The notes: generated by a model not told the origin, from the letters alone. A DNA stretch of 64,000 nucleotides from Frankiaceae bacterium (GCA_019239875.1 JAFAZI010000047.1:39870-103869), one strand, 5' to 3'; shown: positions 19,186-32,057, counted from the first letter of the stretch. Numbers and translations are program-made.

Positions 19186-19911
19186 TCACGCCACGTGCGC
19201 TCCCTTGCGCCGCCTTCCCAGTCGCAGGAACAGCGCGCCGCCGCCCAACAGCACACCCGCGACGCCAATGAGCGCCGCGAGATCGAGGCCGGTCATGGGC
19301 ATCGGGCCCTTAGGGCCTGCGTGGTGGAGCCCGGCCGACGTCGGTAACACGCCTCCGGTTGGCGTCGGGCTCGAGGAAGGCGTCGCCGACTTGGTCGGGC
19401 GCGACGTCTTCGTTGCCTTCACGGAAGGGATCGTCACGACGATCGGCTGCGGGTCCTTCGTGTGCTTGACCACGACGACCGGCGCGGCAGGCGGCGCGAC
19501 CACGACGTACGGCGCGCTGCCGTGCGACGGTGCGTATCCCGAGGCCGGAGCTGGGTCGAAGTGAACGGACAGGACGTGCCGCCCTACCGACATCGATGAG
19601 GTCGACCAGCTCCACCGATACCGGTAGTTGGCTCCCGAAGCAACCTTCGTCTCGCCGTCGTACAACGTGACGCTCCCCCATGCGGCTGCCGGCTCGAGGT
19701 CGGCGATCAACGTCAAGGTGGAGTTGGGAAGGTGAGCTCGGGTCGCGGTTGACTCGAGGTCGATGTGGACAGCGGAGGACTGCAACGCTGTGGGCGAAGG
19801 GCTCGGCGAAGCGGTGGCGGCTGCGGCAGTCGTCAGCTGGCCCAGGGCACCGGCGCTCGACGCAACGATCGCCACCAGCGCCAGCGACACCGATCCCGCG
19901 GTGAGTGACAT
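19186..19911 (-). CDS. small surface protein with Ig-like domain and C-terminal sorting-signal-like tail (MPMTG + hydrophobic + RRRKG)
   Basis: ATG 19911 (RBS GGGGGA) gives a signal peptide MSLTAGSVSLALVAIVASSAGALG; C-terminus ...PTPTGGVLPTSAGLHHAGPKGPMPMTGLDLAALIGVAGVLLGGGALFLRLGRRRKGAHVA. Track ORF has a spurious 88-codon N-extension overlapping the upstream gene. Confidence 0.6.
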   Translation of the reverse strand: MSLTAGSVSLALVAIVASSAGALGQLTTAAAATASPSPSPTALQSSAVHIDLESTATRAHLPNSTLTLIADLEPAAAWGSVTLYDGETKVASGANYRYRWSWSTSSMSVGRHVLSVHFDPAPASGYAPSHGSAPYVVVAPPAAPVVVVKHTKDPQPIVVTIPSVKATKTSRPTKSATPSSSPTPTGGVLPTSAGLHHAGPKGPMPMTGLDLAALIGVAGVLLGGGALFLRLGRRRKGAHVA

Positions 19912-19982
19912 CGATCCCCCGAGACGGCGAGGCCACCGGAGCGCATGTGCTCGCCCCAGCGGCCTCGCCTTGTCCGAATCGG

Positions 19983-21170
19983 CTACTTCTTGATCTTCAC
20001 TGCCTTGGTCGTCGCCTTGCCGGACTTGTAGCCCGCCCGCTTGGCGGTGACCTTGCAGCTCAGCTTGCCGCCCTTGTCCTTCTTCGTGGGCGTGTAGGTC
20101 TTCTGCTTGGCGCCCTTGATCTTCTTGCCGTCGAGGTACCACTTGAACTTGAACTTCGTCGGCTTGGGAGACCACTTACCGGGCTTCACCTTCTCCGGCT
20201 CTCCGACCTTGTGCTTGCCTTTCAGCTTCGGATGCTTGAGGTTGTTGATCCTGGCTTTGGTCACCGTGACGGTCTTCGTCGACGAGCTCGACGAAGCGAA
20301 CGAGCTGTCAGTTGGCGTGAAGGTCGCCTTGATGACGTTCGATCCGGCTGGCAGCTTCTGGACGAGCGTTGCGACGCCGCTGCCGTTGACCGCCACGGCA
20401 GCACCCAGGTTGCCGCCGTTGTCGCTGAACTGAACGGAGCCGGCCGGGTGCGTGCCGCCGCCACCCGTCGTCGCCGTGAGCGTCACCTCGTCAGCGGTCG
20501 TCGCGGTTGTCCGGGACACGGCCAGCGCGGTCGTGGTAGCCGTCGGTGACGCACCTGGGTAGGTCTGGGTCCAGGTCCCACCGGTGACCGTGCCGTCGCC
20601 GTCCTTGGTGATGCCGCTGACCACGAAGTCCAGCGACTGATAGGTGCCGTCAGTCGACGTCTTGACGCGCAGTTGGAATGCATCGACGTAGCCAGGCGTC
20701 GACGTGTCCGTGTTGGGGAAGTCGCCCATGTACGTCGCGATGGTTTCGTCGGTGGCGCCACCGGTCACGACCGGACCGTCAGCGCTCGACACCACGGCCG
20801 GCACGCCTGCGCCTGCCGGGACCGGATAGGTCGTCGACAGGCTGATCTGCTCACCGCTCCACGCGCCTGCGGCGACACCGGTCTTGGGTGTGTAGAGATA
20901 CGCCGTGGCCTTCGTGTGCGCCGTGTCGGCGGTTGAACCGACCATGTACTTGGCGATCGGCGCGTCGGTGACGCTGCCGGTGGTGACCTGGTTACCGGAC
21001 GCGTCGTAAAGCGCGAGCGTCCCGACCTCGTTGGTGTCCTTGGTTCCGCTCGCCTCCCACGGCGGCGGTGTGTCCGCCCCGGCTTGGGAGGCGAGGATCG
21101 TTGCCGCGCCTGAGAAGAGCAGGGTCGCCGCTCCCATCGAGGCGAACGACCGAGTGAGTCGGCGATTCAT
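19983..21170 (-). CDS. secreted surface protein, paralog C (shared two-Trp N-terminal domain; Ig-like middle; Lys-rich C-terminal tail)
   Basis: Signal peptide MNRRLTRSFASMGAATLLFSGAATILASQAGA; conserved N-domain EVGTLALYDASGNQVTTGSVTD...GAWSGEQ...FQLRVKT...GGTWTQTYPG; C-terminus KHPKLKGKHKVGEPEKVKPGKWSPKPTKFKFKWYLDGKKIKGAKQK... Confidence 0.65.
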   Translation of the reverse strand: MNRRLTRSFASMGAATLLFSGAATILASQAGADTPPPWEASGTKDTNEVGTLALYDASGNQVTTGSVTDAPIAKYMVGSTADTAHTKATAYLYTPKTGVAAGAWSGEQISLSTTYPVPAGAGVPAVVSSADGPVVTGGATDETIATYMGDFPNTDTSTPGYVDAFQLRVKTSTDGTYQSLDFVVSGITKDGDGTVTGGTWTQTYPGASPTATTTALAVSRTTATTADEVTLTATTGGGGTHPAGSVQFSDNGGNLGAAVAVNGSGVATLVQKLPAGSNVIKATFTPTDSSFASSSSSTKTVTVTKARINNLKHPKLKGKHKVGEPEKVKPGKWSPKPTKFKFKWYLDGKKIKGAKQKTYTPTKKDKGGKLSCKVTAKRAGYKSGKATTKAVKIKK

Positions 21171-21294
21171 CGGATCCCTTTCCGGGTGATGTCGAGGGGA
21201 CGATCCGCCCCGACGTTAGAGCGATCAGCAGGCATGTCCTGCCGGACCGTCGATGTGTTCATGTCGGCTTCATGCGGCGTGCACGACGTGGTCG

Positions 21295-22161
21295 TCACGA
21301 CCGCCGCCGGAGTGCAAGACCGCCGCCACCGAGGGCGAGCATGGCGATGATGAGGACGACCGTCAGATTGCGGCCGGTGTGCGAGGACGAGGCACTGGCG
21401 TCACTGACCGGCCGAGCTCCAGCCGGCGCCTGCGGCGAGTCAGCAGTGGACGAGCTGTCTCCGTTCCCAGAGCTGGCGGTCGACCCACCAGATGTGGAGG
21501 GTCGCGGCGAGCCGGCCGCGACCGCCGCGTCGTACTTTCGTTGCGCCTGGCGGAACTTCTTCTTCGGAAGGGTGGCGGTCTCGATGGATACCGCCGATCC
21601 GGAACCCTTGCAGTCATCCGCACCGGGATGCAGCTGGGTCCACCTGCCGTCGCTGACCGAGAAGTACGACGCGTTGTACGTCGATCGGAGGGCGGGGGCG
21701 CCTGGCGCGCCCAGATACATCCGGACCTGGAAGACGCCTTCGGCCGCGAGCGGGAAGTCCTTCAGATATGTCGCAAATGACTCGTCGAGGATCGTACCCG
21801 CGGCCATCGGATGGTCAGCATCCGAGAACCGCGCCGAGCCCGTGAGCTGCTGCGGGCTCCACTCCGGCGGCGGCACGTTGGGGCGCGGTTGGAACGCGTA
21901 CAACGTCGCGGTCCCACCGACCCGATAGCCCTTTGGTGCGGACGCCGCGCCGATCGCGCGGTAGATCGCCGGCTTGGTCGCCAACGAACCGCTGGTGACC
22001 TGATTGCCCTGGCCGTCACAGAGAGTGAGCGGGCCGGCGACTTGCGGGTCGGGCGGCGGCGTCACGCCGGCAATCGCTGGCGCCGCCAACCCCACCGCAA
22101 TCCCCACACTGACCGCGACAGTCGCAGCTCCCGATGAGAGGCCTCGGACCAACAACCTCAC
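21295..22161 (-). CDS. secreted surface protein, paralog B (two-Trp N-terminal domain; C-terminal TM anchor + RRRS)
   Basis: GTG 22161 (RBS AAGGAGA, overlaps upstream stop as GTGA); signal peptide VRLLVRGLSSGAATVAVSVGIAVGLAAPAIA; AGPLTLCDGQGNQVTSGSLATKP...EWSPQQ...FQVRMYL...DGRWTQLHPG; C-terminus SSSHTGRNLTVVLIIAMLALGGGGLALRRRS. Confidence 0.6.
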   Translation of the reverse strand: MRLLVRGLSSGAATVAVSVGIAVGLAAPAIAGVTPPPDPQVAGPLTLCDGQGNQVTSGSLATKPAIYRAIGAASAPKGYRVGGTATLYAFQPRPNVPPPEWSPQQLTGSARFSDADHPMAAGTILDESFATYLKDFPLAAEGVFQVRMYLGAPGAPALRSTYNASYFSVSDGRWTQLHPGADDCKGSGSAVSIETATLPKKKFRQAQRKYDAAVAAGSPRPSTSGGSTASSGNGDSSSTADSPQAPAGARPVSDASASSSHTGRNLTVVLIIAMLALGGGGLALRRRS

Positions 22162-23243
22162 GCGGGATCTCCTTGCGGCTGGGTCGCGGGTGGCGGGTCG
22201 ATCCGGTGCCGCCCCGCCTGGCGGCGATGTTTCCGCCACCAGTACCTGAAAGCCAACCCGACGATGAGGAGCAGGAGGATAAGGAGCAAGAGCCAAGGGA
22301 TGGCCAAGAAATGAACGCTGGATGAAGTGGGCTTCAAGCCGGTGTCGACCGCTCCCTGCAACCCTTCCGGGTTGACCGTGACCTTGGCGTTCATCAGCAG
22401 CTCTGGGTACACGTTCGGCACGGTGACGACAACGGGATACGACGCACCAGGCAGCAACGGGGGAATGCTCGCGACCGCCCCGCTGCTGACGTCCTCCCCG
22501 AACAGTCCGTGGACTGACACGGATTGCGGACCGCCGAAGACGACGTTCCCGCCGTTGTGGACCACGTAGCTGACCTTCACGTCACCGCGCGCGAACGGAT
22601 TGACCGGTCCGTCGTACGACGCCGTCAAGTTCCGGATGTCGACTCGAGGGTGGATCGGACCGGTCACGCGGAACACCGCGCGGACGGCGATGCGCTGCAG
22701 GAACTTCTCGTTCTGCGTGCTGCCCTGCCCGAACCGGCCTTTGACCTTGCCGGCGAGCGAGACCACGACGCCTCCGACATGGTCGCCCGGTGGCGCGTTC
22801 ATCGGGATGTGGACGTGTACCGGCAGGACGTTGACCGACCGCGGCTGCAGCGTGAGCACCCCACGACCGTGCGGGGTCCCCACCGACATCCAGGCACCGG
22901 CGTCCCGTCGCTTGACGTCGGGCAGCGGGAAGGAGATCGCGCCTCTGGTGTCAGGGACCGCGTCGACGGTGTACGTCGTCACCCGCAGCGGACGGTGGGA
23001 GTAGTTGGTGATCGCGACGTGGTCGGTCGTCTGGCCGCCGGGCGTGGTGTTGAACGTCAGGTACGGCCGGCCGTCGGGCCCCTTCGCACTCGACGGTGCG
23101 GCGCCGAAGGTCGCGTTCTTCACCTTGGTCGGTGACGAAGAAAAACGATGCCCCACGGGTCCGGCCGACGCTGCCGTCAGGCCTCCCATGAGCATCGTCA
23201 GTACGACGAGCGCAACCGATCGTCTGTAGTGCTTCAGTCCCAT
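22158..23243 (-). CDS. cell-surface protein with signal peptide and C-terminal TM anchor (possible CscA/DUF916-DUF3324-like)
   Basis: 361 aa; MGLKHYRRSVALVVLTMLMGGLTAASA signal; C-terminus LAIPWLLLLILLLLIVGLAFRYWWRKHRRQ. Size, architecture and neighbourhood (WxL-like paralogs, sorting-signal protein) resemble Gram-positive csc clusters. The family name is inferred, not demonstrated. Confidence 0.4.
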   Translation of the reverse strand: MGLKHYRRSVALVVLTMLMGGLTAASAGPVGHRFSSSPTKVKNATFGAAPSSAKGPDGRPYLTFNTTPGGQTTDHVAITNYSHRPLRVTTYTVDAVPDTRGAISFPLPDVKRRDAGAWMSVGTPHGRGVLTLQPRSVNVLPVHVHIPMNAPPGDHVGGVVVSLAGKVKGRFGQGSTQNEKFLQRIAVRAVFRVTGPIHPRVDIRNLTASYDGPVNPFARGDVKVSYVVHNGGNVVFGGPQSVSVHGLFGEDVSSGAVASIPPLLPGASYPVVVTVPNVYPELLMNAKVTVNPEGLQGAVDTGLKPTSSSVHFLAIPWLLLLILLLLIVGLAFRYWWRKHRRQAGRHRIDPPPATQPQGDPA

Positions 23244-23323
23244 CTACTCCCCTGAGAACAGCCCGGTGGGCCGGGACTGATGCCCCGGCCCACCGGTGTG
23301 AACTATCTAGTGCGCGACCACGA

Positions 23324-25186
23324 TCAGTTCCCGTCTGAGACGGTGAAGACGATCGTGCCCTTGTAGGTGCCAGCAGCCGTCGACGTCGGTGCGTTGAGCG
23401 TCAGCTTGCCGTCGTAGGTAGCGGTACCGACGCCGTTCGCCGAACCCTGCAGCACGTTGTGGGCTCCGTTGCCGAGACCCGCGTTGCCGGTGTCGGACGG
23501 TGACACACCAGCAGCGGCCGTGTTGTCGGTCGCCGTGATCGAGCCAGGCTCGCCGGTGTAGCTGTTGACCGGAGTCGACCCGTCGGGGCAAGTGCCGGTC
23601 GACGGCGCGAGCGCCGTCAGGCCGACGTTCTCACCGTTGATCGACGTGTACGCACCGCTCGGCGGCGTCGGGCCACCAGACTGGAGCGACAGCGCACTGG
23701 CCGCAGCCTGCGCGATGAAGCCCGTGTTGACACCACTCGTGTCGGTCACCGTGATGCACTTGAACGTCTTGTTCCCGGTCCACAGGGTGCCGGTTCCGTT
23801 CAATGCGAGGTTGCCCAGGTCGAGCGGGTTCGCGTCCGTGTACGGGGTGCTGATGATCAGCGTTCCGGTCGGGATGCTTGCCGTGATCGTCTGGGTGTCC
23901 GTGCACCCCGGACCGCCCGCCGCCGCCTCGCTGGTGCAGACACCACCGGCGAGGACCGTGGTGAACGAGTTCGGCGCAGAGGCCGAGGCCTCGTAGTTCG
24001 CCGGGTTCGTCGGAGTGAAGTGAGCAACCACGGTGTGCGAACCGGCCGAGAAGCCACCGGTGATGGTCGCCGAGTAGTGACCGCTGCCGTCAACAGCAAC
24101 ACTCGAGCCGCCGTCGACTGGGAGTGCGGAACCCTTGTCCGTGAACGACACCGAGCCGTTCGGCGTGCCCGACCCTGAGGTCACGGCACCCGAGAGCGTT
24201 GCGGTTCCACCGGTCTGGGTGTTACCCGTGATCGTCAATGAGGTGTTGGTCGGGGTGGCCGGCGGGTTCACCGTCTGAGAGAGGGCGTTCGAGGTCGAGC
24301 CCGTGTAGTACGGGAAGACGGTGTTCGCGCTCGGGGTGTAGACGGCGGTGATGCTGTACGGCGAGCCCGACGCGGTCAGAGCTGACGTTGAGACCGACGC
24401 GTGGCCGGTGCCGTTCAGCGACTGTGCCGCACCAAGGTTGGCAGCGCCGTTCTTGAACTGCACGGTGCCGTCGGTCGGGTTGGTGCCGTCCGCGCCCGTC
24501 ACCTGCGTGGTGAAGGTCACCGAGTTGCCCTGGTTGGACGGGTTCGCCGACGAGGTCGGGGTCGAGGTGGTGGTCGCGATCGGCGAGCCGTAAACCTCGG
24601 TCCAGTCACCGCCGGTGACTGCGCCGCTGCCGTCCTTGGTGATGTTGCTGACCATGATGTCCGCGGCCCAGTACGTCCCCGTCGTGCCGGTCTTGACGCG
24701 GATCTGGTAGAGCCCGGCGTACCCGTCAGTGGTGCTGGTGTCGGTGTTCGGGAAGTCGCCGATGTACGTGGACAGCGGCAGGTCGGATCCAGCCCCGGTG
24801 ACGACCGGGTGGGTGCCCAGACCGTTCACCGGCGCGGGGGCGCTGGTGTTCGGGTAAGTGGTCGAGGCCGCTGCCTGCTCACCGCCCCAGGCACCTGGCG
24901 CGACACCAATCTGCGGCGTGTAGAAGAACTGCGTGGCCTTGGTGTGGCCGGCGTCAGTAGTAGAGGCCGCGTAGTAGGCCGCGAGCGGTCCGTCGGTGAC
25001 GTGACCGTGCGTGACTTGCTGGCCGCTCGAGTTGTAGAGGGTCAGCGTTCCGACCTGATTCGAGTCGGGGGTCGACTGGTACGGTGGCGTCGCTGCGTTG
25101 GCAGCACCCGCTCCCACCAGCAGCAACGCCCCGGTCGTGGCCAGGGTTGCCGCCCCGGCTGTGACCGCTGCGAAGCGGATCTTCAT
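23324..25186 (-). CDS. secreted surface protein, paralog A (two-Trp N-terminal domain + long Thr/Gly/Ser-rich Ig-like repeats)
   Basis: 620 aa; strong RBS AAGGGAGAA before ATG 25186; signal MKIRFAAVTAGAATLATTGALLLVGAGAANA; QVGTLTLYNSSGQQVTHGHVTD...GAWGGEQ...YQIRVKT...GGDWTEVY; C-terminal ...AGTYKGTIVFTVSDGN. Confidence 0.65.
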   Translation of the reverse strand: MKIRFAAVTAGAATLATTGALLLVGAGAANAATPPYQSTPDSNQVGTLTLYNSSGQQVTHGHVTDGPLAAYYAASTTDAGHTKATQFFYTPQIGVAPGAWGGEQAAASTTYPNTSAPAPVNGLGTHPVVTGAGSDLPLSTYIGDFPNTDTSTTDGYAGLYQIRVKTGTTGTYWAADIMVSNITKDGSGAVTGGDWTEVYGSPIATTTSTPTSSANPSNQGNSVTFTTQVTGADGTNPTDGTVQFKNGAANLGAAQSLNGTGHASVSTSALTASGSPYSITAVYTPSANTVFPYYTGSTSNALSQTVNPPATPTNTSLTITGNTQTGGTATLSGAVTSGSGTPNGSVSFTDKGSALPVDGGSSVAVDGSGHYSATITGGFSAGSHTVVAHFTPTNPANYEASASAPNSFTTVLAGGVCTSEAAAGGPGCTDTQTITASIPTGTLIISTPYTDANPLDLGNLALNGTGTLWTGNKTFKCITVTDTSGVNTGFIAQAAASALSLQSGGPTPPSGAYTSINGENVGLTALAPSTGTCPDGSTPVNSYTGEPGSITATDNTAAAGVSPSDTGNAGLGNGAHNVLQGSANGVGTATYDGKLTLNAPTSTAAGTYKGTIVFTVSDGN

Positions 25187-25265
25187 GAGTTCTCCCTTAT
25201 TTGTGATGGTCCGATTTGGAGCAGGGCGTTGCTGAGGAAGTCGGATGTTGCGTGGCGTGGTCGCT

Positions 25266-26500: not shown

Positions 26501-26565
26501 GTTTCTGCCTTTCGGAAGTCTTGGTGTGCGCCTGGCGAAACGACACTCGCCGACCGAAACCTCCG

Positions 26566-26587
26566 GCTAGTGCGTAGCGAATGAACC
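26566..26587 (-). promoter_or_regulatory. candidate PHO box (PhoP direct repeats GTTCACCGGGG/GTTCATTCGCT)
   Basis: Minus strand reads ...GACAAGTTCACCGGGGGTTCATTCGCTACGC... about 66-88 nt upstream of the PstS-like ATG: two 11-nt direct-repeat units with the actinobacterial PhoP core GTTCAyy. Confidence 0.5.
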
Positions 26588-26674
26588 CCCGGTGAACTTG
26601 TCGTGGCGGACACATCGAAACCGGACAAGGACGTCGAACCGGCGGACCGCTCCCGCACGCCCGGAAGGACGGCG

Positions 26675-27658
26675 TCACATCAGATTTGGGAGCAGCCTGA
26701 ACACGTTGCTGCTGACCACCCAGACCAACGCGAGAATCACGGGCGCTCCCGCAAGCCACGCCTGCCACAGACCCCACCGGCTGCTGGCCCAGACCGTTGC
26801 CCCGCCCACGATCAGCAACGCCTGAAGCCAGAGCACGAGCGACTCGAGACCGGATGTGTCGGAGTGCATCGCGGTGGCGGATGGCGCGATCACCGTCGGC
26901 CGGCCGGCTGGCGCGAGCAACGCCTTCTCCTTGAGCGCCGCATCCACGAAGACTTCGTGACTCGGTGCCCACCCGGCCCGCCAGCCGGAACCTTGGGATG
27001 AGACCAGGGTCAAGCGGCCGCCGCCATCCGGCACCGGCGGCGGCAGGGGGTCCCCGTTGTGCCTGACGTTTATGACGCTGTAGTGGAAGGTGCCCTGCTG
27101 CGTAGTCGCCGTGATGATGTCGCCCGGATGCAACGATCCGATGTCCTTGAAGGGTGCACCGAAGCTCACGCTTCGGCCCATGAGAACCGACCACCCAAGC
27201 TGACCCGGCAGCGGAGTGTTCTGCTGATGACCGGGACCGTCCCGAAGCACGGTCGACGTCGTGCCTTCCACGACGACCGCCCGGTTGAGCCCAGCCGCAG
27301 GCATGCTGATCACAGCTAATGGCGTGCCCGGTTTGATAGCACCCCCGAGCGGCGCGACCTCCTGCGCGAGCGAGAAGCGCAGCTGCGAGTAGAGCCTGTG
27401 CTGGGCGCTGCGCTCCTGAATACCGCTGAGGAACACGCCGTAGATCAGCAGCCAGACCGCGGTCACGCTCAGCATGAACAGCACGCTGACCGTGAGCGAA
27501 ACACCCGGCGAGGCCGGCGGGAGCGGTGGCGCCTCGCGGGCGGCGGCGAACCGAGTCCGGACCCGTGCGAGTCGCGACGCCGCGGCGGGCTCCGCTCGCC
27601 GCGCGCCGGACCGGGCAGGGGCCGGTCGACCAGGTTTTGCGAGGTCCGTAGCGGTCAT
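26675..27658 (-). CDS. sortase-fold membrane protein lacking catalytic Cys and His (class-E-sortase-like pseudo-sortase)
   Basis: N-terminal TM (VSLTVSVLFMLSVTAVWLLIYGVFL). The region IKPGTPLAVISMPAAGLNRAVVVEGTTSTVLRDGPGHQQNTPLPGQLGWSVLMGRSVSFGAPFKDIGSLHPGDIITATTQQGTFHYSV...RLTLVSSQGSG is collinear with the sortase-E consensus (IPxIGv..VveGt...LxkGpGHypxTxlPGqxGNsviaGHRTTyGAPFxxLdxLxxGDxI...TyxY...LTLvTCHP). The GHRTT His is replaced by Arg and the TLxTC Cys by Ser; the protein contains no Cys at all. Two extra C-terminal TM segments. ATG overlaps the upstream stop (ATGA). Confidence 0.6.
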   Translation of the reverse strand: MTATDLAKPGRPAPARSGARRAEPAAASRLARVRTRFAAAREAPPLPPASPGVSLTVSVLFMLSVTAVWLLIYGVFLSGIQERSAQHRLYSQLRFSLAQEVAPLGGAIKPGTPLAVISMPAAGLNRAVVVEGTTSTVLRDGPGHQQNTPLPGQLGWSVLMGRSVSFGAPFKDIGSLHPGDIITATTQQGTFHYSVINVRHNGDPLPPPVPDGGGRLTLVSSQGSGWRAGWAPSHEVFVDAALKEKALLAPAGRPTVIAPSATAMHSDTSGLESLVLWLQALLIVGGATVWASSRWGLWQAWLAGAPVILALVWVVSSNVFRLLPNLM

Positions 27659-30381
27659 GTCCTGCGTCGCTGGCGCACGTACCTGGTGATCGCCGGCGCC
27701 AACAAGCCGCTGAGGAGCGCAAGAGCGAGGAGGATGGGGAGCGCGACGCCGGCAAGCTTCGAGGAGCTCGCGACCGTGTTGCCCAGCGACGCCGGCGCTG
27801 GGGAGGCGACAGCAGGAGGGCTTGCTGGATCGCTGGGGCCTGGGGTGGCGGCGCCGTCGACTGCCGGCACAGTCGGAGCAGCCGACGACGGGGGCGACGA
27901 AGAGCTGCCCGTTCCATCTGGACCAGTGCCACCGTTGTTGCCGTCGTTCCCCTGGTTGTCGGCCTTCGACGGGACGAGCGATGGCACGTCACCACGCTGA
28001 GCTCGGACCGCGCTCGCCGCGCGCGTCGTGTACGCGACGAGCCGACCCAGTCCGTTCGACTTCGTCATCGGCAGATACCCAGGTGGCAAATTTCCTGGGT
28101 CGAAGCCCTGCGTCTGGCCGGGGCCGGCCGCGAAGTCGAGCAGCTTTGAGTAGTCCGTAGCGGCCGAGCTCGCAAGACCTTTGGTCGCAACGGTGGTGTA
28201 GACGATCATCGTGCCTGGATATGCGCCCTTCGCGGATGGTGCCTTGCGGAGCCGCTTCGAGTCGACGGGCCAGGTACCCGTCGTCATGTCCGGCTTCGCC
28301 GTGTCGGCAGCCGCCCGCATCGACGCCATCGTCGGCCGGACGAACGTGCGTCCGGCCAGGCTCGAGAAGTCGGACTTCGCGGCCGAGGTGGTCTGTGCCT
28401 CGAGTGACGCCATGCTGAGCCGATAGCGCTCAGCATCAGGAATGGTCGTCACGCCGAGCATGAACCGCGAGCCCAGCTGCTGGCGTCCGATGGCCACCAG
28501 CCGTTCACCCGAGCTCTGTCCCTGCAGCGGTTGGTAGCAGACGGTCTGCGAGTTCGCGATGGCGAACTGCATGGCCAGTGCGATCTGGCTCAGTCGCTGG
28601 ACCGGCGCTGCCACCAGCGGCAGGTATGGGACAGGGGTGTTGTAGAGGCAGTCGTTGAGTCCCGGCTGGTAGATGTCGGACGGAATGTATGTGTCGAGCA
28701 GCGGCCACGTGTTCACGGGGAGCTGGATGCGCTTGTAGGCCTTGTTGACCACCATCCCCCACGGGTCAGGTTTGCCGTCCAGCCATGCGCGAGCCTCGGG
28801 GTCGGCGTTGATGTAGGAGGTGAGGGCGTACATCACGTCTGACTGGCTGGAGAGGTTGAGGATCGTCGCACCGACTTGCGAGTCGGTGGTGACGCCGGGA
28901 TTGAGCGCCTCGAACTCTGGGTCGCGAGTGATGTTCAGCGGGTTCTTGGCAAGGGCCTTGTCCTTGTTCTGGATCTCGCTGATGGCCGGGTAGGACTCAG
29001 TCATCAGCTTCGCCAGCAACCGCGGATCGAGCTGGAGCTTGGTGACGGGGTCACCGTGAGCGTCGTCGATGTCGAAGGTGATCGCGAACCCGCTGACAGC
29101 GGTCGGCGCGTTGACCGTCGGGAACGGGAATCCCCCGGCCTGCGGCTGACTGGTGAAGGCTGCGTCGATCGAGCCCGACATCAGCTGAGTCCGAGCCTGC
29201 GGCTCGCCCACCTGAACGTGCTTGAAGTTGAACAGCGACTTCGTCAGGCAGAACTTCGGGGACCACTGTTGTGTGGCTTGCGTCATCAGCTCGGAGCCGT
29301 ACACGGGAACGGCCGCGCCCGCACCCACCACGTCGCAGACACTCGGCGTCTGCGCGAAGCTGAGTGGGACGGACAGCCGGTTCCGCCAGTTCGACGCGGC
29401 CCACCACAGCGCACCGCTCACCGTGGCGTCCTCGTGACCGTTCCCGTCACCAACCTCACCCGGTGCGAAGTGACCCTTCTTCACGCACTCGGCGGTGGCT
29501 TGCTCGATGTCGGGCGCTGGCGGCTTGTCGTCGTCCGGCAGCCCTTCGGCTGCGGGATCGCAGCTGATGCCCATGATCGGCACGGCGACCAGGCTGCACA
29601 CAACTCTTGCCGAGCAGCCCAATGACGTGTTCGTGTCCGCGGTCCACATGTCGAACTTCGTCGAACCCTGGCCGTTGGTCTGCGTGATGCCGTAGGTCTC
29701 GTTGCTCGGCATCGCCTGGTTGCTGTCACCGGTTGCCTCGGGCGCGGTGCCCGCGCAGCCGTTCGGCCCGCCGTAGTACTTGGTACCGCCAAGCGCGATG
29801 AAGGGGACCCAGTACTCCTCAGGCGCCGCGCCGAAACACTCCTCGGGCCTTGTTGTAGGCGCTCCGTACAGGGCGGATCGCTGTGCGGCCGAGGCGTACT
29901 TGTCCAGCCGCCACGGCGGGTAGGCCTGGTCGTTGCTCGCGTAGTTGGAATCGGACTGGAACCGCTCGGTGGTCGCGTTGGTCCAACAGGTCTGCGGCGA
30001 GAGTCGGTCGGCCTTGGGAGCGCGCTTCGAATCCAGGCCACGACACTCGAGCAGCACCATCGGATATTCCTCCTGCAGACCCAGGGAGGAGTTGATGTTT
30101 CCGACCAGACCGCCCGTCGGGTGCGCGCCGCTCCAGGACACGTCCACCTCTTGCCGATCGCGCAATCCCACCGTCTGAGCGACATGCAAGGAGACCTTGC
30201 GCTTGTCGACGACCGAGGTCGTGCCGTCCTTGGTTACGGTGCGGACAGCTGTGTGCTTGACGGTGACAGGCTTCAGATCGGCGTGCGATCGCCCGGGCGT
30301 TCCCGACGCGACACCTGTCGCAGCGGCGCCGACCGCCACCGCCGTCGCGGTGATAGCGGCCCAACGTTTTGTCAGTTTCAT
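27655..30381 (-). CDS. 909-aa secreted orphan protein, Cys-rich N-terminal region, C-terminal Ser/Pro-rich linker + TM anchor
   Basis: ATG 30381 overlaps the pstS stop (ATGA); signal peptide MKLTKRWAAITATAVAVGAAATGVASG; many paired Cys; C-terminus ...SSSPPSSAAPTVPAVDGAATPGPSDPASPPAVASPAPASLGNTVASSSKLAGVALPILLALALLSGLLAPAITRYVRQRRRT. No recognisable catalytic motif. Track ORF carries a 139-codon Arg-rich artefactual extension. Confidence 0.55.
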   Translation of the reverse strand: MKLTKRWAAITATAVAVGAAATGVASGTPGRSHADLKPVTVKHTAVRTVTKDGTTSVVDKRKVSLHVAQTVGLRDRQEVDVSWSGAHPTGGLVGNINSSLGLQEEYPMVLLECRGLDSKRAPKADRLSPQTCWTNATTERFQSDSNYASNDQAYPPWRLDKYASAAQRSALYGAPTTRPEECFGAAPEEYWVPFIALGGTKYYGGPNGCAGTAPEATGDSNQAMPSNETYGITQTNGQGSTKFDMWTADTNTSLGCSARVVCSLVAVPIMGISCDPAAEGLPDDDKPPAPDIEQATAECVKKGHFAPGEVGDGNGHEDATVSGALWWAASNWRNRLSVPLSFAQTPSVCDVVGAGAAVPVYGSELMTQATQQWSPKFCLTKSLFNFKHVQVGEPQARTQLMSGSIDAAFTSQPQAGGFPFPTVNAPTAVSGFAITFDIDDAHGDPVTKLQLDPRLLAKLMTESYPAISEIQNKDKALAKNPLNITRDPEFEALNPGVTTDSQVGATILNLSSQSDVMYALTSYINADPEARAWLDGKPDPWGMVVNKAYKRIQLPVNTWPLLDTYIPSDIYQPGLNDCLYNTPVPYLPLVAAPVQRLSQIALAMQFAIANSQTVCYQPLQGQSSGERLVAIGRQQLGSRFMLGVTTIPDAERYRLSMASLEAQTTSAAKSDFSSLAGRTFVRPTMASMRAAADTAKPDMTTGTWPVDSKRLRKAPSAKGAYPGTMIVYTTVATKGLASSAATDYSKLLDFAAGPGQTQGFDPGNLPPGYLPMTKSNGLGRLVAYTTRAASAVRAQRGDVPSLVPSKADNQGNDGNNGGTGPDGTGSSSSPPSSAAPTVPAVDGAATPGPSDPASPPAVASPAPASLGNTVASSSKLAGVALPILLALALLSGLLAPAITRYVRQRRRT

Positions 30382-32057
30382 ATCGAGTCCTTGGGCGGCG
30401 CGGTCCGCAGCCGGCGCGCCAGCATCGGCGGCCCAATCAGAATCAGCAGGAACAGAATCCCCGCCAGTGGCCCGAGCACGTCGGTGTTCTGCGAGGTTGG
30501 GATCTCGGTCGGTTGGGCCACGATGTTGGAGGTGTCCGTCGTCGTTCCACCCGGCGTGGTGTTGGTCGGGTTGGTCGGGTCGGCCACCTGACCCGGGTTC
30601 GTCGGATCGGTCTGCCCGCCGCCCCCTCCGGGAGTGGTCGGATTCGCGCCGCCGCCAGGATTGGTCGGGTTGGCACCACCACCGCCGCCGCCGGTGCCGC
30701 CGCCGTTTCCACCTCCGCCATTGCCGCCGTGGCCGCCGCCACCACTCGTCCCCGGGTCGCCGGCGTCGGTGCACGGGCCGGCACCAGCTTTGTCGCACGC
30801 CGGCGGCTTCGGTGCGATCTGCGCCAGGTGGTTGCCCTTCGGGTCACCCGGCACGAACGTGGGGTTGTGGCAGCTGTTGACGTTGCGCTTGGTGAGGTCA
30901 ACGCCGGAGTCGGCGGTCTTGAGCTCCGCAATCTGTTTGAAACCTGCCTGGACCAGGTTGACCGGGAGCGGTGAGTAGCCGATCGGGCCCATCTCGGTCT
31001 GCCCCGTGCAGATGGAGTAGAAGTCGAAGTCAGCGAGTGTCTGCCGTTTCGCCGTCGTCATGGTCTTGTCGTTCGACGCGATCGGAATGACTTGATAGGA
31101 GTACGACGACAGCGGGTAGGTGCGGACGTCCTTGTCGACGTACACGTTGTCGAGGTCCTGGAGCAGGTAGTCCTTCGAGTTCTTGTCGTAGTTGATCTTT
31201 GCCTTGAGCAGTGCGACGGCGACGTTGTACTGCGTGGGAAGCGTGAAGTAACCGGCCTTGTTCTCGATCTTCGCGACCGGGTAGTCCTTGCCCAAGGCGT
31301 AGGAGTACTCGTCGTAGCCGATGGCACCGTTGGCGGCCTTGGACGTGACGAAGTTCATCACGCCGTCGGAGCCATTCTGGGCGACCGCGTTCTTCACCTT
31401 CGATGCCGGAAAATACTCGGTGAGCTCGTCCAGGCCGTTGCCGTTCTGGTCCTTGTTGATAGAGGTCCACTCGTTCGGGAACTCGGTCGCGAGATAGCGC
31501 GTGAACTGTGCCGTCGAGCCCGAGCCCTCGGAGTGAACAACCGGAATGATCGGGATCGAGGGGAACTTGCGCCCGTTGTTGTCGGCGGTGATCTGTGGCG
31601 CGTTCCAGTTCGTGATCTTGCCGGTGAAGATTCCCGCCAACGTGGCCCCGGAGAGCCGGAGGTTGCGAACCAGCTGGCCCGCGACCTGGAGCTGGTACGG
31701 GAATGACGTACCGCCTGCGACGATCGGTAGATACGCGTACCCGCGTCCATCTGGTGAGTCGTCCGCGTTGGTGGCCGGATCCCGACCTTGGAACCCGATG
31801 TCGGTCACTGCGAAGTCGTTCTGCCGATTCGCGAAGTCCTTGCGGCCCTGCGCCGAACCGCTCGACGTGAAGACGACCTGCAGACCTTGTGATTGGACGT
31901 CCGCGATCCACTGGTTCACGGCGTTGGCACTCCAGCTCGAACCCGAGCCGGCGATCAACGCATGGCTGCCAGCCGCCTGGGCGGGTGTCGTCGCGCCGAT
32001 CGCCAGGCCGGCGACGGCGAGCGCCGCCAGGGCACGCCAGAAGGGGTTTCGCGTCAT
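30378..32057 (-). CDS. pstS: phosphate ABC transporter substrate-binding protein with C-terminal Gly-rich linker and TM anchor
   Basis: Non-lipoprotein signal peptide MTRNPFWRALAALAVAGLAIGATTPAQA|AGS; PstS fold with IIPVVHSEGSGSTAQFTRYL (SGSGT motif); C-terminus GGGGHGGNGGGGNGGGTGGGGGGANPTNPGGGANPTTPGGGGG...LGPLAGILFLLILIGPPMLARRLRTAPPKDSI; ATG overlaps the pstA stop (ATGA). Confidence 0.8.
   Translation of the reverse strand: MTRNPFWRALAALAVAGLAIGATTPAQAAGSHALIAGSGSSWSANAVNQWIADVQSQGLQVVFTSSGSAQGRKDFANRQNDFAVTDIGFQGRDPATNADDSPDGRGYAYLPIVAGGTSFPYQLQVAGQLVRNLRLSGATLAGIFTGKITNWNAPQITADNNGRKFPSIPIIPVVHSEGSGSTAQFTRYLATEFPNEWTSINKDQNGNGLDELTEYFPASKVKNAVAQNGSDGVMNFVTSKAANGAIGYDEYSYALGKDYPVAKIENKAGYFTLPTQYNVAVALLKAKINYDKNSKDYLLQDLDNVYVDKDVRTYPLSSYSYQVIPIASNDKTMTTAKRQTLADFDFYSICTGQTEMGPIGYSPLPVNLVQAGFKQIAELKTADSGVDLTKRNVNSCHNPTFVPGDPKGNHLAQIAPKPPACDKAGAGPCTDAGDPGTSGGGGHGGNGGGGNGGGTGGGGGGANPTNPGGGANPTTPGGGGGQTDPTNPGQVADPTNPTNTTPGGTTTDTSNIVAQPTEIPTSQNTDVLGPLAGILFLLILIGPPMLARRLRTAPPKDSI

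What the first reader, a model, noticed from the sequence alone, without database searches (positions are those of the whole stretch)
19186..32057. Five neighbouring exported proteins share a C-terminal hydrophobic anchor plus basic tail but lack canonical LPXTG; only one has an LPXTG-like motif (MPMTG)
The C-termini are as follows. PstS: ...LGPLAGILFLLILIGPPMLARRLRTAPPKDSI. The 909-aa protein: ...KLAGVALPILLALALLSGLLAPAITRYVRQRRRT. Paralog B: ...SSHTGRNLTVVLIIAMLALGGGGLALRRRS. The DUF916-like protein: ...LAIPWLLLLILLLLIVGLAFRYWWRKHRRQ. The small Ig-like protein: ...KGPMPMTGLDLAALIGVAGVLLGGGALFLRLGRRRKG. This is the tripartite architecture of sortase sorting signals (motif, TM, positive tail), yet the only locally encoded sortase homolog is cysteine-less. 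A PstS anchored by a C-terminal TM helix is itself unusual, because actinobacterial PstS proteins are normally N-terminal lipoproteins. Possibly these proteins stay membrane-tethered by the uncleaved signal, and the pseudo-sortase recognises but does not cleave them.
Basis: partly seen in the sequence, partly recalled or inferred. Interest (0 to 1): 0.6.

Follow-up and report, generated by a model that had tools for sequence, protein, structure and literature searches.

The report
Dead sortase inside phosphate-uptake surface cluster
A gene cluster conserved across Actinomycetota joins a phosphate importer to cell-wall display proteins and a catalytically dead sortase; its phosphate-binding proteins are held by C-terminal membrane helices instead of lipid anchors, and only one small, non-conserved neighbour is an ordinary sortase substrate.

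Summary
Five minus-strand genes between 19186 and 32057 end in a hydrophobic helix plus Arg/Lys tail, and the only sortase homolog in the 64 kb has no cysteine. The five tails are not one class:

- **Ig244:** belongs to a family whose consensus at that position is LPFTG, so MPMTG is a genuine sorting signal. The gene is absent from the closest related loci.
- **DUF916 protein:** a WxL-interacting protein, for which a C-terminal helix is the normal architecture.
- **PstS and the 908-aa protein:** the latter's C-terminal half has a PstS fold. Both keep the tail in 120/120 and 116/118 homologs. Each has its own conserved pre-helix motif (VPTxL[APS]A; SLGxT). Neither has a conserved LPXTG.
- **B333:** lineage-specific.

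The sortase homolog defines a family of 201 analysed members with an intact sortase fold. The catalytic His is always Arg/Lys, the Cys is never Cys, and the Arg is not conserved. In 80 genomes it lies in one syntenic module: pstC, pstA, PstS, 908-aa protein, PBP-like protein, WxL-like protein, WxLIP, pseudo-sortase, pstB. The module carries PHO-box-like repeats.

My best reading is that the tails are permanent stop-transfer anchors of a Pst–WxL envelope module, with the pseudo-sortase as a non-catalytic subunit. Recognition of uncleaved signals remains possible but untested. I found no description of this module in the searched literature.

The parts
35619..35651 (-). PHO-box-like tandem 11-nt direct repeats (GTTCATCTTTC GCTCATCTGCC GTTCGGCCTGC) upstream of the operon start
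   Evidence: This is one of only two matches to G[GT]TCA-N6-G[GTC]TCA in the whole window on both strands. The consensus is from my memory of Sola-Landa 2005/2008. The 11-nt repeat organisation is confirmed in PMC7866108.
34212..35114 (-). pstB, ABC ATPase (true start probably the ATG near 35060)
   Evidence: TIGR00972 PstB scores 333.5 bits against a cut-off of 343.2. Pfam ABC_tran. It is 70-85% identical to the pstB next to the pseudo-sortase in the 80 loci.
33177..34196 (-). pstC permease
   Evidence: TIGR02138 scores 239.5 bits, above the cut-off of 196.45.
32054..33169 (-). pstA permease; its stop overlaps the PstS start (ATGA)
   Evidence: TIGR00974 scores 200.6 bits, above the cut-off of 193.45. 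Overlap shown.
30378..32057 (-). PstS559: Sec signal peptide without a lipobox Cys, PstS-fold domain, Cys-containing extension, Gly/Thr/Pro-rich linker, C-terminal helix, basic tail
   Evidence: PBP_like_2 at 5.6e-32. TIGR00975 scores 172.9 bits, below the cut-off of 205. Matches PDB PstS 8ods at 2e-22. Tail described. 120/120 homologs keep the tail.
30381..30515 (-). PstS C-terminal region: pre-helix motif QPTEIPTS (residues 515-522), helix, invariant PP, LARRLR, tail
   Evidence: Column statistics over 120 homologs: P 97/120; L/I/V 119/120; then A/P/S; PP 120/120 and 111/120; RR 80 and 86/120.
27655..30381 (-). P909 (908 aa): signal peptide, Cys-rich N-terminal half of unknown fold, PstS-like C-terminal half, linker, C-terminal helix, basic tail. 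ATGA overlaps on both sides.
   Evidence: No Pfam hit. hhalign against PstS gives E = 1.5e-4 over 293 columns. Foldseek of the AF2 model puts 28 phosphate-binding proteins on top, best E = 8.7e-8, TM-score per target 0.55-0.70 among the 20 best. The tail is kept in 67/69 loci and 116/118 homologs.
27658..27792 (-). P909 C-terminal region: SLGNT motif (residues 865-869), helix, RYVRQRRRT
   Evidence: In 118 homologs G is present in 109 and T in 115. T is the most conserved column of the last 75 residues, at 4.13 bits.
26675..27658 (-). Pseudo-sortase: cytoplasmic Arg-rich N-terminus, TM1, complete sortase beta-barrel lacking His/Cys/Arg, TM2-TM3 hairpin ending in the invariant LLPNL motif
   Evidence: Pfam Sortase at 1.8e-11. 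NCBIfam class E scores 64.7 bits against a cut-off of 160. PDB alignments. Catalytic-column census of 201 sequences. AF2 model with pLDDT 89.1. The 50 best Foldseek hits listed are all sortases, TM-score per target up to 0.77.
26576..26597 (-). Second PHO-box-like repeat pair (GTTCACCGGGG GTTCATTCGCT) between the pseudo-sortase and the PBP392 gene
   Evidence: Matches occur at the same intergenic position in L001 (4216) and L002 (10805, 10840).
25322..26500 (-). PBP392: secreted PBP-like protein without a C-terminal anchor
   Evidence: PBP_like_2 at 2.1e-12. No C-terminal helix. Orthologs present in most loci.
23324..25186 (-). A620: N-terminal domain shared with C395 and B333, Big_3_5 Ig domains, C-terminal WxL-like domain ending GTYKGTIVFTVSDGN; no membrane anchor
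   Evidence: Big_3_5 at 6.2e-17. The window copy itself has no Pfam WxL hit, but 6/10 orthologs do, best 1e-6. Orthologs end in AGTYTATLTLTAI.
22158..23243 (-). WxLIP-like protein (DUF916 domain, second Ig-like domain, C-terminal helix, charged cytoplasmic tail)
   Evidence: WxLIP_PGBD scores 25.9 bits, just below the cut-off of 27.3. 10/11 orthologs hit it, best 9.7e-10. The helix is kept in nearly all 57 orthologs.
21295..22296 (-). B333: paralog of the A620/C395 N-terminal domain with a C-terminal helix and RRRS tail. The true start is probably downstream of 22296.
   Evidence: Full-length homologs with the tail occur only in L001, L002 and L004.
19983..21170 (-). C395: same N-terminal domain, Big_3_5, Lys-rich C-terminal domain; no anchor
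   Evidence: The C-terminal domain recurs directly upstream of the pseudo-sortase in the Streptomyces and Actinacidiphila loci.
19186..19911 (-). Ig244: small Ig-like surface protein with a real LPXTG-type sorting signal (MPMTG at 19288-19302); not a conserved member of the module
   Evidence: Weak Big_7 hit. In 15 homologs the aligned position reads LPFTG, MPFTG or LAMTG, with T invariant and P and G nearly so. Absent from L001 and L002, where C395 is followed directly by the NlpC/P60 gene.

Best explanation
The region is one copy of a conserved actinobacterial envelope module that merges a Pst-type phosphate ABC importer (PstB, PstC, PstA) with a WxL-type wall-display set (WxL-like protein plus WxLIP) and a catalytically dead sortase.

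**Shown**
- PstS559 and P909 both have a PstS fold, a Sec signal peptide without a lipobox, a long low-complexity linker, and a conserved C-terminal helix followed by Arg/Lys.
- The WxLIP homolog has its family's normal C-terminal helix.
- Ig244 carries a variant of its family's LPFTG signal.
- The sortase homolog keeps the sortase barrel and has three membrane helices. It has lost the His, the Cys, the Arg and the class-E Tyr.

**Inferred**
- The helices of PstS, P909, WxLIP and B333 are permanent stop-transfer anchors obeying the positive-inside rule. In PstS and P909 they replace the usual lipid anchor and let the binding domains reach into the wall on a flexible tether.
- The pseudo-sortase is a non-catalytic membrane subunit, a scaffold or adaptor. 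It is made in fixed proportion with pstA, PstS and P909 and sits beside the tail-anchored PstS-fold proteins near PstCA.
- Ig244 is cleaved and wall-linked by a genuine sortase encoded elsewhere in the genome.
- The whole module is switched on by phosphate starvation.
For: **Synteny**
- In 80 loci from Nocardioides, Microbacterium, Streptomyces, Actinoplanes, Dactylosporangium, Cellulomonas and Acidimicrobiia MAGs among others, the pseudo-sortase lies in the same gene set, usually immediately upstream of pstB.
- The result holds when starting from PstS homologs on long contigs. Three of four show PstS, a roughly 900-aa protein and a Sortase-Pfam gene in that order. The fourth is frameshifted.

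**Tails**
- PstS keeps the tail in 120/120 homologs, and P909 in 116/118 homologs and 67/69 loci. WxLIP keeps it in nearly all orthologs.
- Neither PstS nor P909 has a conserved LPXTG or LAXTG.
- A C-terminal helix is the described architecture of WxLIP (PMC10599100).

**Fold and family assignments**
- PstC and PstA pass their equivalog cut-offs.
- The P909 model matches PstS structures.
- WxL and WxLIP Pfam models hit 6/10 and 10/11 orthologs.
- A Microbacterium PstS paralog carries the A620-type C-terminal domain (hhalign probability 96.8%).

**Pseudoenzyme status**
- Catalytic-column census of 201 sequences, PDB alignments, high-confidence sortase fold.

**Coupling**
- ATGA overlaps join pstA, PstS, P909 and the pseudo-sortase.
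- P909-pseudo-sortase fusions P0169 and P0175 have a topology that fits only if the P909 helix spans the membrane permanently.

**Other**
- Ig244 family consensus LPFTG.
- PHO-box-like repeats occur only at two cluster promoters in the window and recur in related loci.
Against: - Nothing here shows where the proteins sit or whether the tails are cleaved.
- PstS and P909 each have a strongly conserved short motif 10-15 residues before the helix (VPTxL[APS]A; SLGxT, with T in 115/118). A plain anchor does not need such a motif, which hints at a specific partner or a processing step.
- In Microbacteriaceae the PstS motif reads L[AP][DE]xG, which is LAXTG-like without the Thr.
- The two fusion proteins come from long-read metagenome assemblies. 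At least one neighbouring assembly in the same series is frameshift-ridden, so the fusions could be assembly artefacts.
- The window's PstS clade has His/Glu where Arg135/Asp137 bind phosphate in E. coli PstS, so its ligand is not certain.
- The PHO-box assignment rests on a consensus recalled from memory.
Confidence: 0.6

Rival explanations
1. The PstS and P909 tails are pseudo-sorting signals. The extracytoplasmic barrel of the dead sortase binds their pre-helix motifs (SLGxT; [LI][AP]xx) as a sortase binds LPXT. Lacking a nucleophile, it holds them uncleaved and so acts as a receptor that organises the tethered binding proteins.
For: - Strict co-inheritance and translational coupling.
- Possible P909-pseudo-sortase fusions.
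- Both tails are tripartite, with conserved motifs lying on the outer side of the helix, where the barrel is.
- P909's L-G-x-T, and the L[AP][DE]xG of Microbacteriaceae PstS in which the Thr position varies freely, look like LPXT/LAXTG relieved of the need for a scissile bond.
- The barrel is intact and modelled with high confidence.
Against: - The PstS and P909 motifs differ from each other and drift between lineages.
- The class-E Tyr that reads the P3 residue is not conserved: R 86, L 54, Q 34 of 201 (PMC5148588).
- Some of the strongest conservation in the PstS tail is at the cytoplasmic end of the helix (PP, LLxRRL), where the barrel cannot reach.
- Resemblances between 4-5-residue motifs are weak evidence.
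- No complex model could be built here.
Confidence: 0.25
2. The tails are generic single-pass anchors. Their neighbourhood with a sortase-like gene is incidental, and the pseudo-sortase is a decaying relic without function.
For: - A helix followed by basic residues is what the positive-inside rule produces for any type I membrane protein.
- No motif is shared by the five tails.
Against: - The pseudo-sortase family has 460 database hits at E <= 1e-5.
- It has invariant residues: D239 in 199/201, P324 in 201/201, N325 in 200/201.
- Its fold is modelled with high confidence.
- Its synteny is fixed across at least two classes (Actinomycetes and Acidimicrobiia). A relic would not be kept like this.
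- Such tails are many-fold enriched inside the cluster relative to its flanks.
Confidence: 0.08
3. PstS, P909 and B333 are real substrates of a housekeeping (class E) sortase that accepts non-canonical motifs. They are cleaved and linked to peptidoglycan.
For: - A few Microbacteriaceae PstS proteins read LADTG or LPSTG (L046, L060, L035).
- Many clusters also encode a canonical LAXTG or LPXTG protein.
- Ig244 is such a substrate.
Against: - The Thr position is unconstrained in close relatives (T, P, D, N, G, S, R).
- P909's Thr is followed by L, A, P or V, not Gly.
- The window proteins have no L[PA]xTG.
- A wall-linked PstS could not return to PstCA to deliver its ligand (inference).
Confidence: 0.05

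Closest known systems
WxL / Csc cell-surface gene clusters of Lactobacillales and Bacillales (WxL proteins, WxLIP = DUF916-DUF3324-TM, small LPXTG protein)
   Same: - A WxL-type C-terminal domain protein. Orthologs hit Pfam WxL.
- A DUF916/WxLIP protein with a C-terminal helix.
- In many genomes, a small LPXTG or LAXTG protein in the same operon.
- All are secreted surface proteins.
   Different: - It occurs in Actinomycetota, whereas the literature puts more than 91% of WxL sequences in Firmicutes (PMC9772566).
- The second Trp-x-Leu motif is replaced (TLTLT in orthologs), and the window's A620 has no Trp at either motif position by my reading.
- The set is embedded inside a pst operon with three PstS-fold proteins and a pseudo-sortase. 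None of these is part of the Firmicute clusters described in PMC1534035, PMC9772566 or PMC10599100.
Class E sortases and their LAXTG sorting signals (e.g. S. coelicolor SrtE1, S. avermitilis SrtE, C. diphtheriae SrtF)
   Same: - Best sequence and fold matches.
- An N-terminal membrane anchor.
- Shared scaffold motifs: EGT, GPGH, LPG-G, GAPF.
   Different: - His251 becomes Arg/Lys, Cys320 becomes Ala/Ser/other, and neither Arg329 nor Tyr229 is conserved, in 201/201 sequences (residue numbers from PMC5148588).
- Two extra C-terminal membrane helices ending in an invariant LLPNL.
- It scores 64.7 bits against the NCBIfam class E cut-off of 160, yet public records name it 'class E sortase'.
PstSCAB phosphate importers of Actinobacteria with lipoprotein PstS (M. 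tuberculosis PstS1-3, Streptomyces PstS)
   Same: - PstC and PstA pass their equivalog cut-offs; PstB is just below its cut-off.
- PstS fold.
- Most orthologs keep the Arg/Asp phosphate-binding pair.
- PHO-box-like repeats.
   Different: - PstS has no lipobox and is anchored by a C-terminal helix after a linker of roughly 100 residues or more.
- The gene order is pstB-C-A-S or pstC-A-S...pstB, with 5-8 surface-protein genes inserted.
- Extra PstS-fold proteins are present: P909, PBP392 and, in some genera, a PstS fused to a WxL-like domain.
- I found no paper describing a C-terminally anchored PstS.
Secreted proteins with a C-terminal helix and basic tail but no pentapeptide, encoded next to class F sortases in Actinoplanes missouriensis (AMIS_11010, AMIS_36440)
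   Same: A signal peptide, a helix and basic residues without a recognisable sorting pentapeptide, encoded next to a sortase-family gene. The authors suggested these proteins may be substrates (PMC13251363).
   Different: Those proteins were classified by InterPro as class F sortases and treated as sortase candidates in that paper. They are not in a pst/WxL context, and the proteins were not analysed further.
Dedicated C-terminal sorting systems in which a tripartite signal is paired with a co-encoded processing enzyme (exosortase/PEP-CTERM, archaeosortase/PGF-CTERM, rhombosortase/GlyGly-CTERM). Cited from my own knowledge.
   Same: A family-specific short motif, a helix and a basic cluster at the C-terminus, co-occurring with one dedicated membrane protein.
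   Different: The partner here cannot be a cysteine transpeptidase. The motifs differ between the two cargo families.

Membership tests
Sortase (cysteine transpeptidase, class E) | Eight-stranded sortase beta-barrel fold | tested here: met
   Pfam Sortase at 1.8e-11. AF2 model with pLDDT 89.1 and pTM 0.77. The 50 best Foldseek PDB hits listed are all sortases; TM-score per target is 0.77 for 4d70 and 0.70-0.71 for S. avermitilis SrtE.
Sortase (cysteine transpeptidase, class E) | Catalytic His-Cys-Arg triad (the TLxTC cysteine) | tested here: not met
   The window protein has 0 Cys. In 201 family members the His site is R 181 / K 20. The Cys site is A 105 / S 72 / T 7 / V 6 / G 5, never Cys. 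The Arg site is variable. Only 3/201 have any Cys in the domain. Alignment to 4d70 and 5go6.
Sortase (cysteine transpeptidase, class E) | Class-E Tyr in the beta3/beta4 loop that reads Ala at P3 of LAXTG | tested here: not met
   The residue after GPGH is R 86, L 54, Q 34, with others rarer. The position is defined from PMC5148588.
Sortase (cysteine transpeptidase, class E) | Score above the NCBIfam class E cut-off | tested here: not met
   NF033747 scores 64.7 bits against a cut-off of 160, and the match ends before the TLxTC region.
Sortase cell-wall sorting signal | LPXTG or LAXTG pentapeptide just before the helix | tested here: not met
   This row concerns PstS, P909, the DUF916 protein and B333. 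None has the motif in the window. It is not conserved in orthologs.
Sortase cell-wall sorting signal | LPXTG-type pentapeptide, helix and basic tail in Ig244 | tested here: met
   MPMTG aligns with LPFTG, MPFTG or LAMTG in 15 homologs. T is invariant and P and G nearly so, followed by a helix and RRR.
Sortase cell-wall sorting signal | Cleavage between T and G and linkage to peptidoglycan | not testable with these tools
   Needs C-terminal mass spectrometry and cell fractionation.
WxL gene cluster (Csc) | Protein with a C-terminal WxL domain | tested here: inconclusive
   The window's A620 has no Pfam WxL hit. However, 6/10 orthologs hit PF13731, best 1e-6, and the C-terminal motif pattern is shared. 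The second Trp-x-Leu is replaced by T-L-T in the orthologs' ends.
WxL gene cluster (Csc) | WxLIP: DUF916 domain, second Ig-like domain, C-terminal helix | tested here: met
   The window protein scores 25.9 bits, just under the cut-off of 27.3. 10/11 orthologs hit WxLIP_PGBD, best 9.7e-10. The helix is present. A DUF3324 Pfam hit was not obtained.
WxL gene cluster (Csc) | Small LPXTG protein in the cluster | tested here: inconclusive
   Present in the Streptomyces, Actinacidiphila, Actinoplanes and Dactylosporangium loci. No canonical L[PA]xTG protein other than PstS itself was found in the Microbacterium and Nocardioides loci. In the window the only candidate, Ig244, is not conserved.
PstSCAB phosphate ABC transporter | PstC, PstA and PstB equivalogs | tested here: met
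   PstC 239.5 bits (cut-off 196.45). PstA 200.6 bits (cut-off 193.45). PstB 333.5 bits, slightly below its cut-off of 343.2.
PstSCAB phosphate ABC transporter | PstS with the canonical phosphate-binding residues | tested here: inconclusive
   TIGR00975 scores 172.9 bits, below 205. Asp56 and the Ser/Thr ligands align. Arg135/Asp137 are His/Glu in the window clade but Arg/Asp in most orthologs.
PstSCAB phosphate ABC transporter | N-terminal lipoprotein anchor of PstS (the actinobacterial norm; from my own knowledge) | tested here: not met
   There is no Cys in the signal peptide region. A C-terminal helix is present instead.

The most novel reading that the evidence does not exclude
A catalytically dead sortase has been kept as a receptor. 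Its barrel binds uncleavable, LPXT-derived 'pseudo-sorting signals' (SLGxT in P909, [LI][AP]xx in PstS) just outside the membrane. In this way it assembles long-tethered phosphate-binding proteins, a WxL/WxLIP wall scaffold and the PstCA permease into one phosphate-scavenging surface machine. This would be a pseudoenzyme-pseudosubstrate pair that evolved from the sortase system.
Probability: 0.25. Interest if true: 0.8.

Novelty: new variant of a known kind. Interest (0 to 1): 0.62.

Why it matters
- **Annotation.** Sortases are treated as enzymes by definition, and public annotation calls these proteins 'class E sortase'. A family of hundreds of members across Actinomycetota, including culturable Streptomyces, Microbacterium, Nocardioides and Actinoplanes, has lost the whole active site yet is strictly conserved. 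That corrects the annotation and gives a tractable example of a bacterial surface pseudoenzyme.
- **WxL clusters.** These clusters, so far discussed as adhesion systems of gut Firmicutes, have actinobacterial relatives wired into a phosphate importer. This suggests a nutrient-capture role for that architecture.
- **PstS anchoring.** PstS can be held by a long-tethered C-terminal helix, or fused to a wall-binding domain, instead of a lipid. This bears on how monoderm bacteria with thick walls scavenge phosphate.
- **Testability.** All of this can be tested genetically in existing strains.

Tried and rejected
1. **One motif shared by the five tails.** None was found. Each family has its own.
2. 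**The invariant C-terminal LLPNL of the pseudo-sortase docking as a product mimic into its own groove.** The AF2 model puts it at the end of the TM3 helix (H297-326), not in an extended peptide. This is not supported, although coordinates could not be inspected.
3. **A third P909-sortase fusion in L082 (a 1297-aa ORF).** Translation shows garbled stretches between good ones, so it is a frameshift artefact. This also tempers trust in fusions P0169 and P0175. Their junction has no alternative-frame stop that would restore separate genes, but error cannot be excluded.
4. **Retention of the class-E Tyr as a sign of preserved LAXTG recognition.** It is not retained.
5. **Genome scan with the 19-sequence alignment A1.** Repeated with 7 sequences.
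6. **Sequence search of P909 against the PDB.** No hit. Resolved by profile-profile comparison and fold search. The N-terminal half of the P909 model is low-confidence and was not interpreted.
7. **Pfam WxL on the PstS paralogs.** Only one weak hit. Resolved by hhalign against the A620 family.
8. **Literature searches.** Nothing relevant was found for pseudo-sortases, for WxL with Actinobacteria and PstS, or for a C-terminally anchored PstS.

Full report
**Source and layout.** The window matches a Frankiaceae metagenome-assembled genome. Both the sortase homolog and the PstS are 100% identical to NCBI MAG proteins on a 109,705-bp contig. G+C is 64-70% throughout. The finding covers a run of minus-strand genes. 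In order they are:

- pstB (34212-35114)
- pstC (33177-34196)
- pstA (32054-33169)
- PstS559 (30378-32057)
- P909 (27655-30381)
- the sortase homolog (26675-27658)
- PBP392 (25322-26500)
- A620 (23324-25186)
- the DUF916-like protein (22158-23243)
- B333 (21295-22296)
- C395 (19983-21170)
- Ig244 (19186-19911)

The pairs pstA/PstS, PstS/P909 and P909/sortase homolog each overlap by ATGA.

**Check of the observation.** All five quoted tails are present. Each is a 20-30-residue hydrophobic stretch followed by two to five Arg/Lys. There are two small corrections. P909 is 908 aa, and the DUF916 tail runs 19 residues beyond the quote. None of the five has L[PA]xTG; Ig244 has MPMTG. The sortase homolog has no cysteine. 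tblastn finds no second sortase-like sequence in the window. The tails are not a background feature. In the window only the polytopic permeases PstA and PstC share the property outside this block. In 80 related loci the property marks 145 of 785 ORFs inside the cluster against 20 of 596 outside. Most of those 20 are cluster extensions or false positives, leaving about five.

**The sortase homolog is a pseudoenzyme family.**

- Pfam Sortase matches only model positions 1-83 of 125. NCBIfam class E scores 64.7 bits against a cut-off of 160.
- Alignment to solved class D and class E sortases puts Arg162 at the catalytic His, Ser221 at the TLxTC Cys, and Glu235 (HMMER alignment; 234-235 by MAFFT) at the catalytic Arg.
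- In 201 family members (120 database hits, 80 genomic loci and the window protein) the His site is Arg in 181 and Lys in 20. The Cys site is Ala 105, Ser 72, Thr 7, Val 6, Gly 5, and never Cys. The Arg site is variable. Only 3 of 201 have any Cys in the domain.
- The Tyr that class E enzymes use to read the P3 alanine follows the GH of strand beta3 in SrtE1 (PMC5148588). It is also lost.
- Even so, the fold is intact. The AF2 model has mean pLDDT 89.1, eight strands and three long helices (51-98, 269-295, 297-326). The 50 best Foldseek PDB hits listed are all sortases.
- New invariant positions exist: D239 in 199/201, and a C-terminal P-N-L in 201, 200 and 187 of 201.
- No paper in the library mentions a pseudo-sortase. 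Public records call these proteins 'class E sortase' or 'sortase A'.

**The surrounding module is conserved.** A scan of one genome per species returned 107 relatives, of which 80 loci were kept. tblastn of the window proteins against these loci shows one syntenic set everywhere. It reads pstC, pstA, PstS, P909, a PBP392-like gene, an A620-like gene and a DUF916 gene, in lineage-specific order and number, then the pseudo-sortase and pstB.

- In Microbacteriaceae, Streptomyces, Actinoplanes, Dactylosporangium and others the pseudo-sortase lies immediately upstream of pstB, so the surface-protein genes sit inside a pst operon.
- In the window's clade and in Nocardioides it follows P909.
- Starting instead from PstS homologs on megabase contigs gives the same picture. 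Three of four show PstS, a ~900-aa protein and a Sortase-Pfam gene in order. The fourth is a frameshifted assembly.

**Identity of the other genes.**

- PstC and PstA pass their NCBIfam equivalog cut-offs. PstB is just under its cut-off.
- PstS559 has the PstS fold.
- P909 has no Pfam or PDB sequence hit. Its residues ~360-755 align to PstS in a profile-profile comparison (E = 1.5e-4). The confident half of its AF2 model retrieves 28 phosphate-binding proteins as top hits (E down to 8.7e-8, TM-score per target 0.55-0.70 among the 20 best).
- PBP392 is a third PBP-like protein, without an anchor.
- The DUF916-like protein scores just under the Pfam cut-off for WxLIP_PGBD, but 10 of 11 orthologs hit it.
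- A620 itself does not hit Pfam WxL, but 6 of 10 orthologs do. The family ends in ...APTSTxAGTYTATLTLTAI, the pattern of the second WxL motif without the Trp.
- In Microbacterium and Streptomyces loci a second PstS paralog downstream of pstB carries this same C-terminal domain instead of a helix (hhalign probability 96.8%, E = 2.4e-10).

The closest known system for this part is therefore the Firmicute WxL/Csc cluster: WxL proteins, a WxLIP with a C-terminal helix, and a small LPXTG protein (PMC1534035, PMC9772566, PMC10599100). Here it is fused to a phosphate importer.

**The five tails taken one by one.**

- *Ig244.* A full-library phmmer search finds 110 relatives. In an alignment of 15 full-length relatives the MPMTG position reads LPFTG in most, with MPFTG and LAMTG variants. 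T is invariant and P and G nearly so, followed by a helix and RRR. It is an ordinary sortase substrate with a Leu-to-Met variant. It must be handled by a real sortase encoded outside the window. It is absent from the two closest loci, where C395 is followed directly by the NlpC/P60 gene.
- *DUF916.* The helix is the described third domain of WxLIP (PMC10599100) and is kept in nearly all 57 orthologs.
- *B333.* Full-length homologs with the tail exist only in L001, L002 and L004.
- *PstS.* All 120 closest homologs and about 50 of the genomic orthologs keep the tail. Column statistics over 120 homologs show a pre-helix motif V-P-T-x-L-[A/P/S]-A (P 97/120; L/I/V 119/120). They also show an invariant Pro-Pro at the inner end of the helix (120 and 111 of 120), followed by LLxRRL. 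In Microbacteriaceae the motif reads SPFTL[AP][DE]xG[WM]G. That is L[AP]xxG in 19 of 51 sequences, 8-14 residues before the helix core, with the 'Thr' position free (T, P, D, N, G, S, R). The window has QPTEIPTSQ.
- *P909.* 116 of 118 homologs and 67 of 69 loci keep the tail. The pre-helix motif is S-L-G-x-T (G 109/118, T 115/118). T is the most conserved column of the last 75 residues.

PstS and P909 therefore have genuinely tripartite C-termini. Their motifs are not LPXTG, are not the same as each other, and change between lineages.

**Links between the tails and the pseudo-sortase.** There are three beyond co-inheritance.

- The ATGA overlaps imply coupled translation.
- Two distinct metagenomic proteins (P0169, 1214 aa; P0175, 1211 aa) read straight from the P909 helix and RRR tail through a ~40-residue linker into TM1 of the pseudo-sortase. 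They occur in the expected gene context. No alternative frame restores a stop. This topology works only if the P909 helix spans the membrane with its tail inside. Because a sister assembly is frameshift-ridden, I treat the fusions as probable, not proven.
- Many clusters also hold a canonical LAXTG or LPXTG protein next to the pseudo-sortase, but Microbacterium and Nocardioides clusters do not. The conserved partner must therefore be among the universal components.

**Regulation.** The pattern G[GT]TCA-N6-G[GTC]TCA corresponds to two 11-nt PhoP repeat units. The repeat organisation is from PMC7866108; the consensus is from my memory. It occurs only twice in the 64 kb, both times on the coding strand of the cluster and in intergenic regions. 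One is upstream of the operon (35651-35619). The other lies between the pseudo-sortase and PBP392 (26597-26576). Matches sit at the same intergenic position in L001 and L002, and just upstream of the WxLIP gene in six Microbacteriaceae loci. One related locus lies next to ppk, CHAD/CYTH and NUDIX genes, and another next to phosphoesterase genes. I infer Pho-regulon control.

**Interpretation.** The best-supported reading is that the helices of PstS, P909, WxLIP and B333 are permanent stop-transfer anchors within a phosphate-starvation envelope module. The pseudo-sortase would then be a non-catalytic membrane subunit of that module (confidence 0.6). It explains why those motifs are conserved and why P909's is L-G-x-T. 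It is weakened by the loss of the class-E specificity Tyr, by the dissimilarity of the two motifs, and by strong conservation on the cytoplasmic side of the PstS helix (confidence 0.25). A relic or coincidence (0.08) and true sortase processing of PstS and P909 (0.05) fit the data poorly.

**Novelty.** Each component belongs to a known kind: a Pst transporter, a WxL/WxLIP cluster, the sortase fold and an LPXTG substrate. Three things are not described in the papers I could search: their combination, the C-terminally anchored PstS subfamily, and the conserved catalytically dead sortase family. The nearest published remark concerns proteins with a signal peptide, helix and basic tail but no pentapeptide beside class F sortases of Actinoplanes missouriensis. 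They were proposed as possible substrates and not analysed (PMC13251363). I rate this a new variant of a known kind, with moderate-to-high interest because culturable hosts make it directly testable.

Noticed in passing
window 35619-35651 (-) and 26576-26597 (-); L001 4216; L002 10805 and 10840; about 7.8-7.95 kb in L035, L050, L055, L066, L071, L078: PHO-box-like tandem 11-nt repeats occur only at two promoters of the cluster in the whole window. They recur at orthologous intergenic positions in related loci, which suggests PhoP control of both the transporter and the surface-protein genes.
   Followed up: partly
L048 11382-13253; L054 12129-13802; L041 2738-4456; also L032, L034, L056, L067 downstream of pstB: A second PstS paralog ends in the A620-type WxL-like domain (e.g. 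GWSLQ ... GSYRSTLTLTLIAR) instead of a membrane helix. This is a phosphate-binding protein fused to a putative wall-binding domain (hhalign probability 96.8%). Pfam WxL gives only a weak hit.
   Followed up: partly
P0169, P0175; L081 10001-13636: These are apparent natural fusions of P909 with the pseudo-sortase. The order is P909, helix, RRR, linker, TM1, barrel, TM2, TM3, LLPNLW. A similar long ORF in L082 (11677-15570) is a frameshift artefact, so the fusions need confirmation.
   Followed up: partly
window 26675-26700 (C-terminus of the pseudo-sortase): The family ends in an invariant L-L-P-N-L-[LVMI] (P 201/201, N 200/201). The AF2 model places it at the end of the TM3 helix. Its role is unknown.
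   Followed up: partly
window PstS559 residues ~172-181 (VVHSEGSGST), about 31515-31544: The window clade (with L002, L006, L009) has His/Glu where E. coli PstS has Arg135/Asp137. Most other orthologs keep VVRSDGSG. The ligand or affinity may differ.
   Followed up: partly
window 23324-25186, 19983-21170, 21295-22296: A620, C395 and B333 share an N-terminal domain of about 170 residues with no Pfam match (PPxxxSxDxNxVGTLxLYxxxGxQVTxG...). The Lys-rich C-terminal domain of C395 recurs directly upstream of the pseudo-sortase in the Streptomyces and Actinacidiphila loci.
   Followed up: no
window about 35063-35533 (-): A ~156-codon ORF lies just upstream of pstB, and its stop overlaps the likely pstB start. 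It has two W-x-WRL-type repeats reminiscent of DUF1508/YegP. L083 and L084 carry a faint-DUF1508 gene beside pstB, and L082 has a 168-aa gene at the same position.
   Followed up: no
window 27655-30381, N-terminal half of P909 (residues ~36-350): This is a Cys-rich region; across the whole protein 10 Cys are invariant and one more nearly so in 28 homologs, about eight of them in this region. It has no detectable homolog and a low-confidence AF2 model, so its fold and role are unknown.
   Followed up: no
window 16623-17822 (-) and 17853-19175 (+): An NlpC/P60 peptidase and an SLT-domain transglycosylase flank the cluster. NlpC/P60 also follows the cluster in L001, L002 and L082, so wall-remodelling enzymes may be associated with it.
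   Followed up: no
L015, L022, L027, L028 (11.8-14.9 kb); L019, L021, L023, L025, L037, L052, L064, L076, L077 (about 7-8.6 kb); L024, L033, L038, L039 (about 8.7-9.7 kb): Canonical LAXTG or LPXTG proteins are encoded inside the module in Dactylosporangium, Streptomyces/Actinacidiphila and Actinoplanes. They are the counterpart of the small LPXTG protein of Firmicute WxL clusters.
   Followed up: partly
L006, L007, L010 (14-21 kb): The Nocardioides loci (L006, L007) and the MAG locus L010 carry a second pstC-pstA tandem copy directly after pstB, followed by PstS and/or P909 where the locus extends far enough.
   Followed up: no
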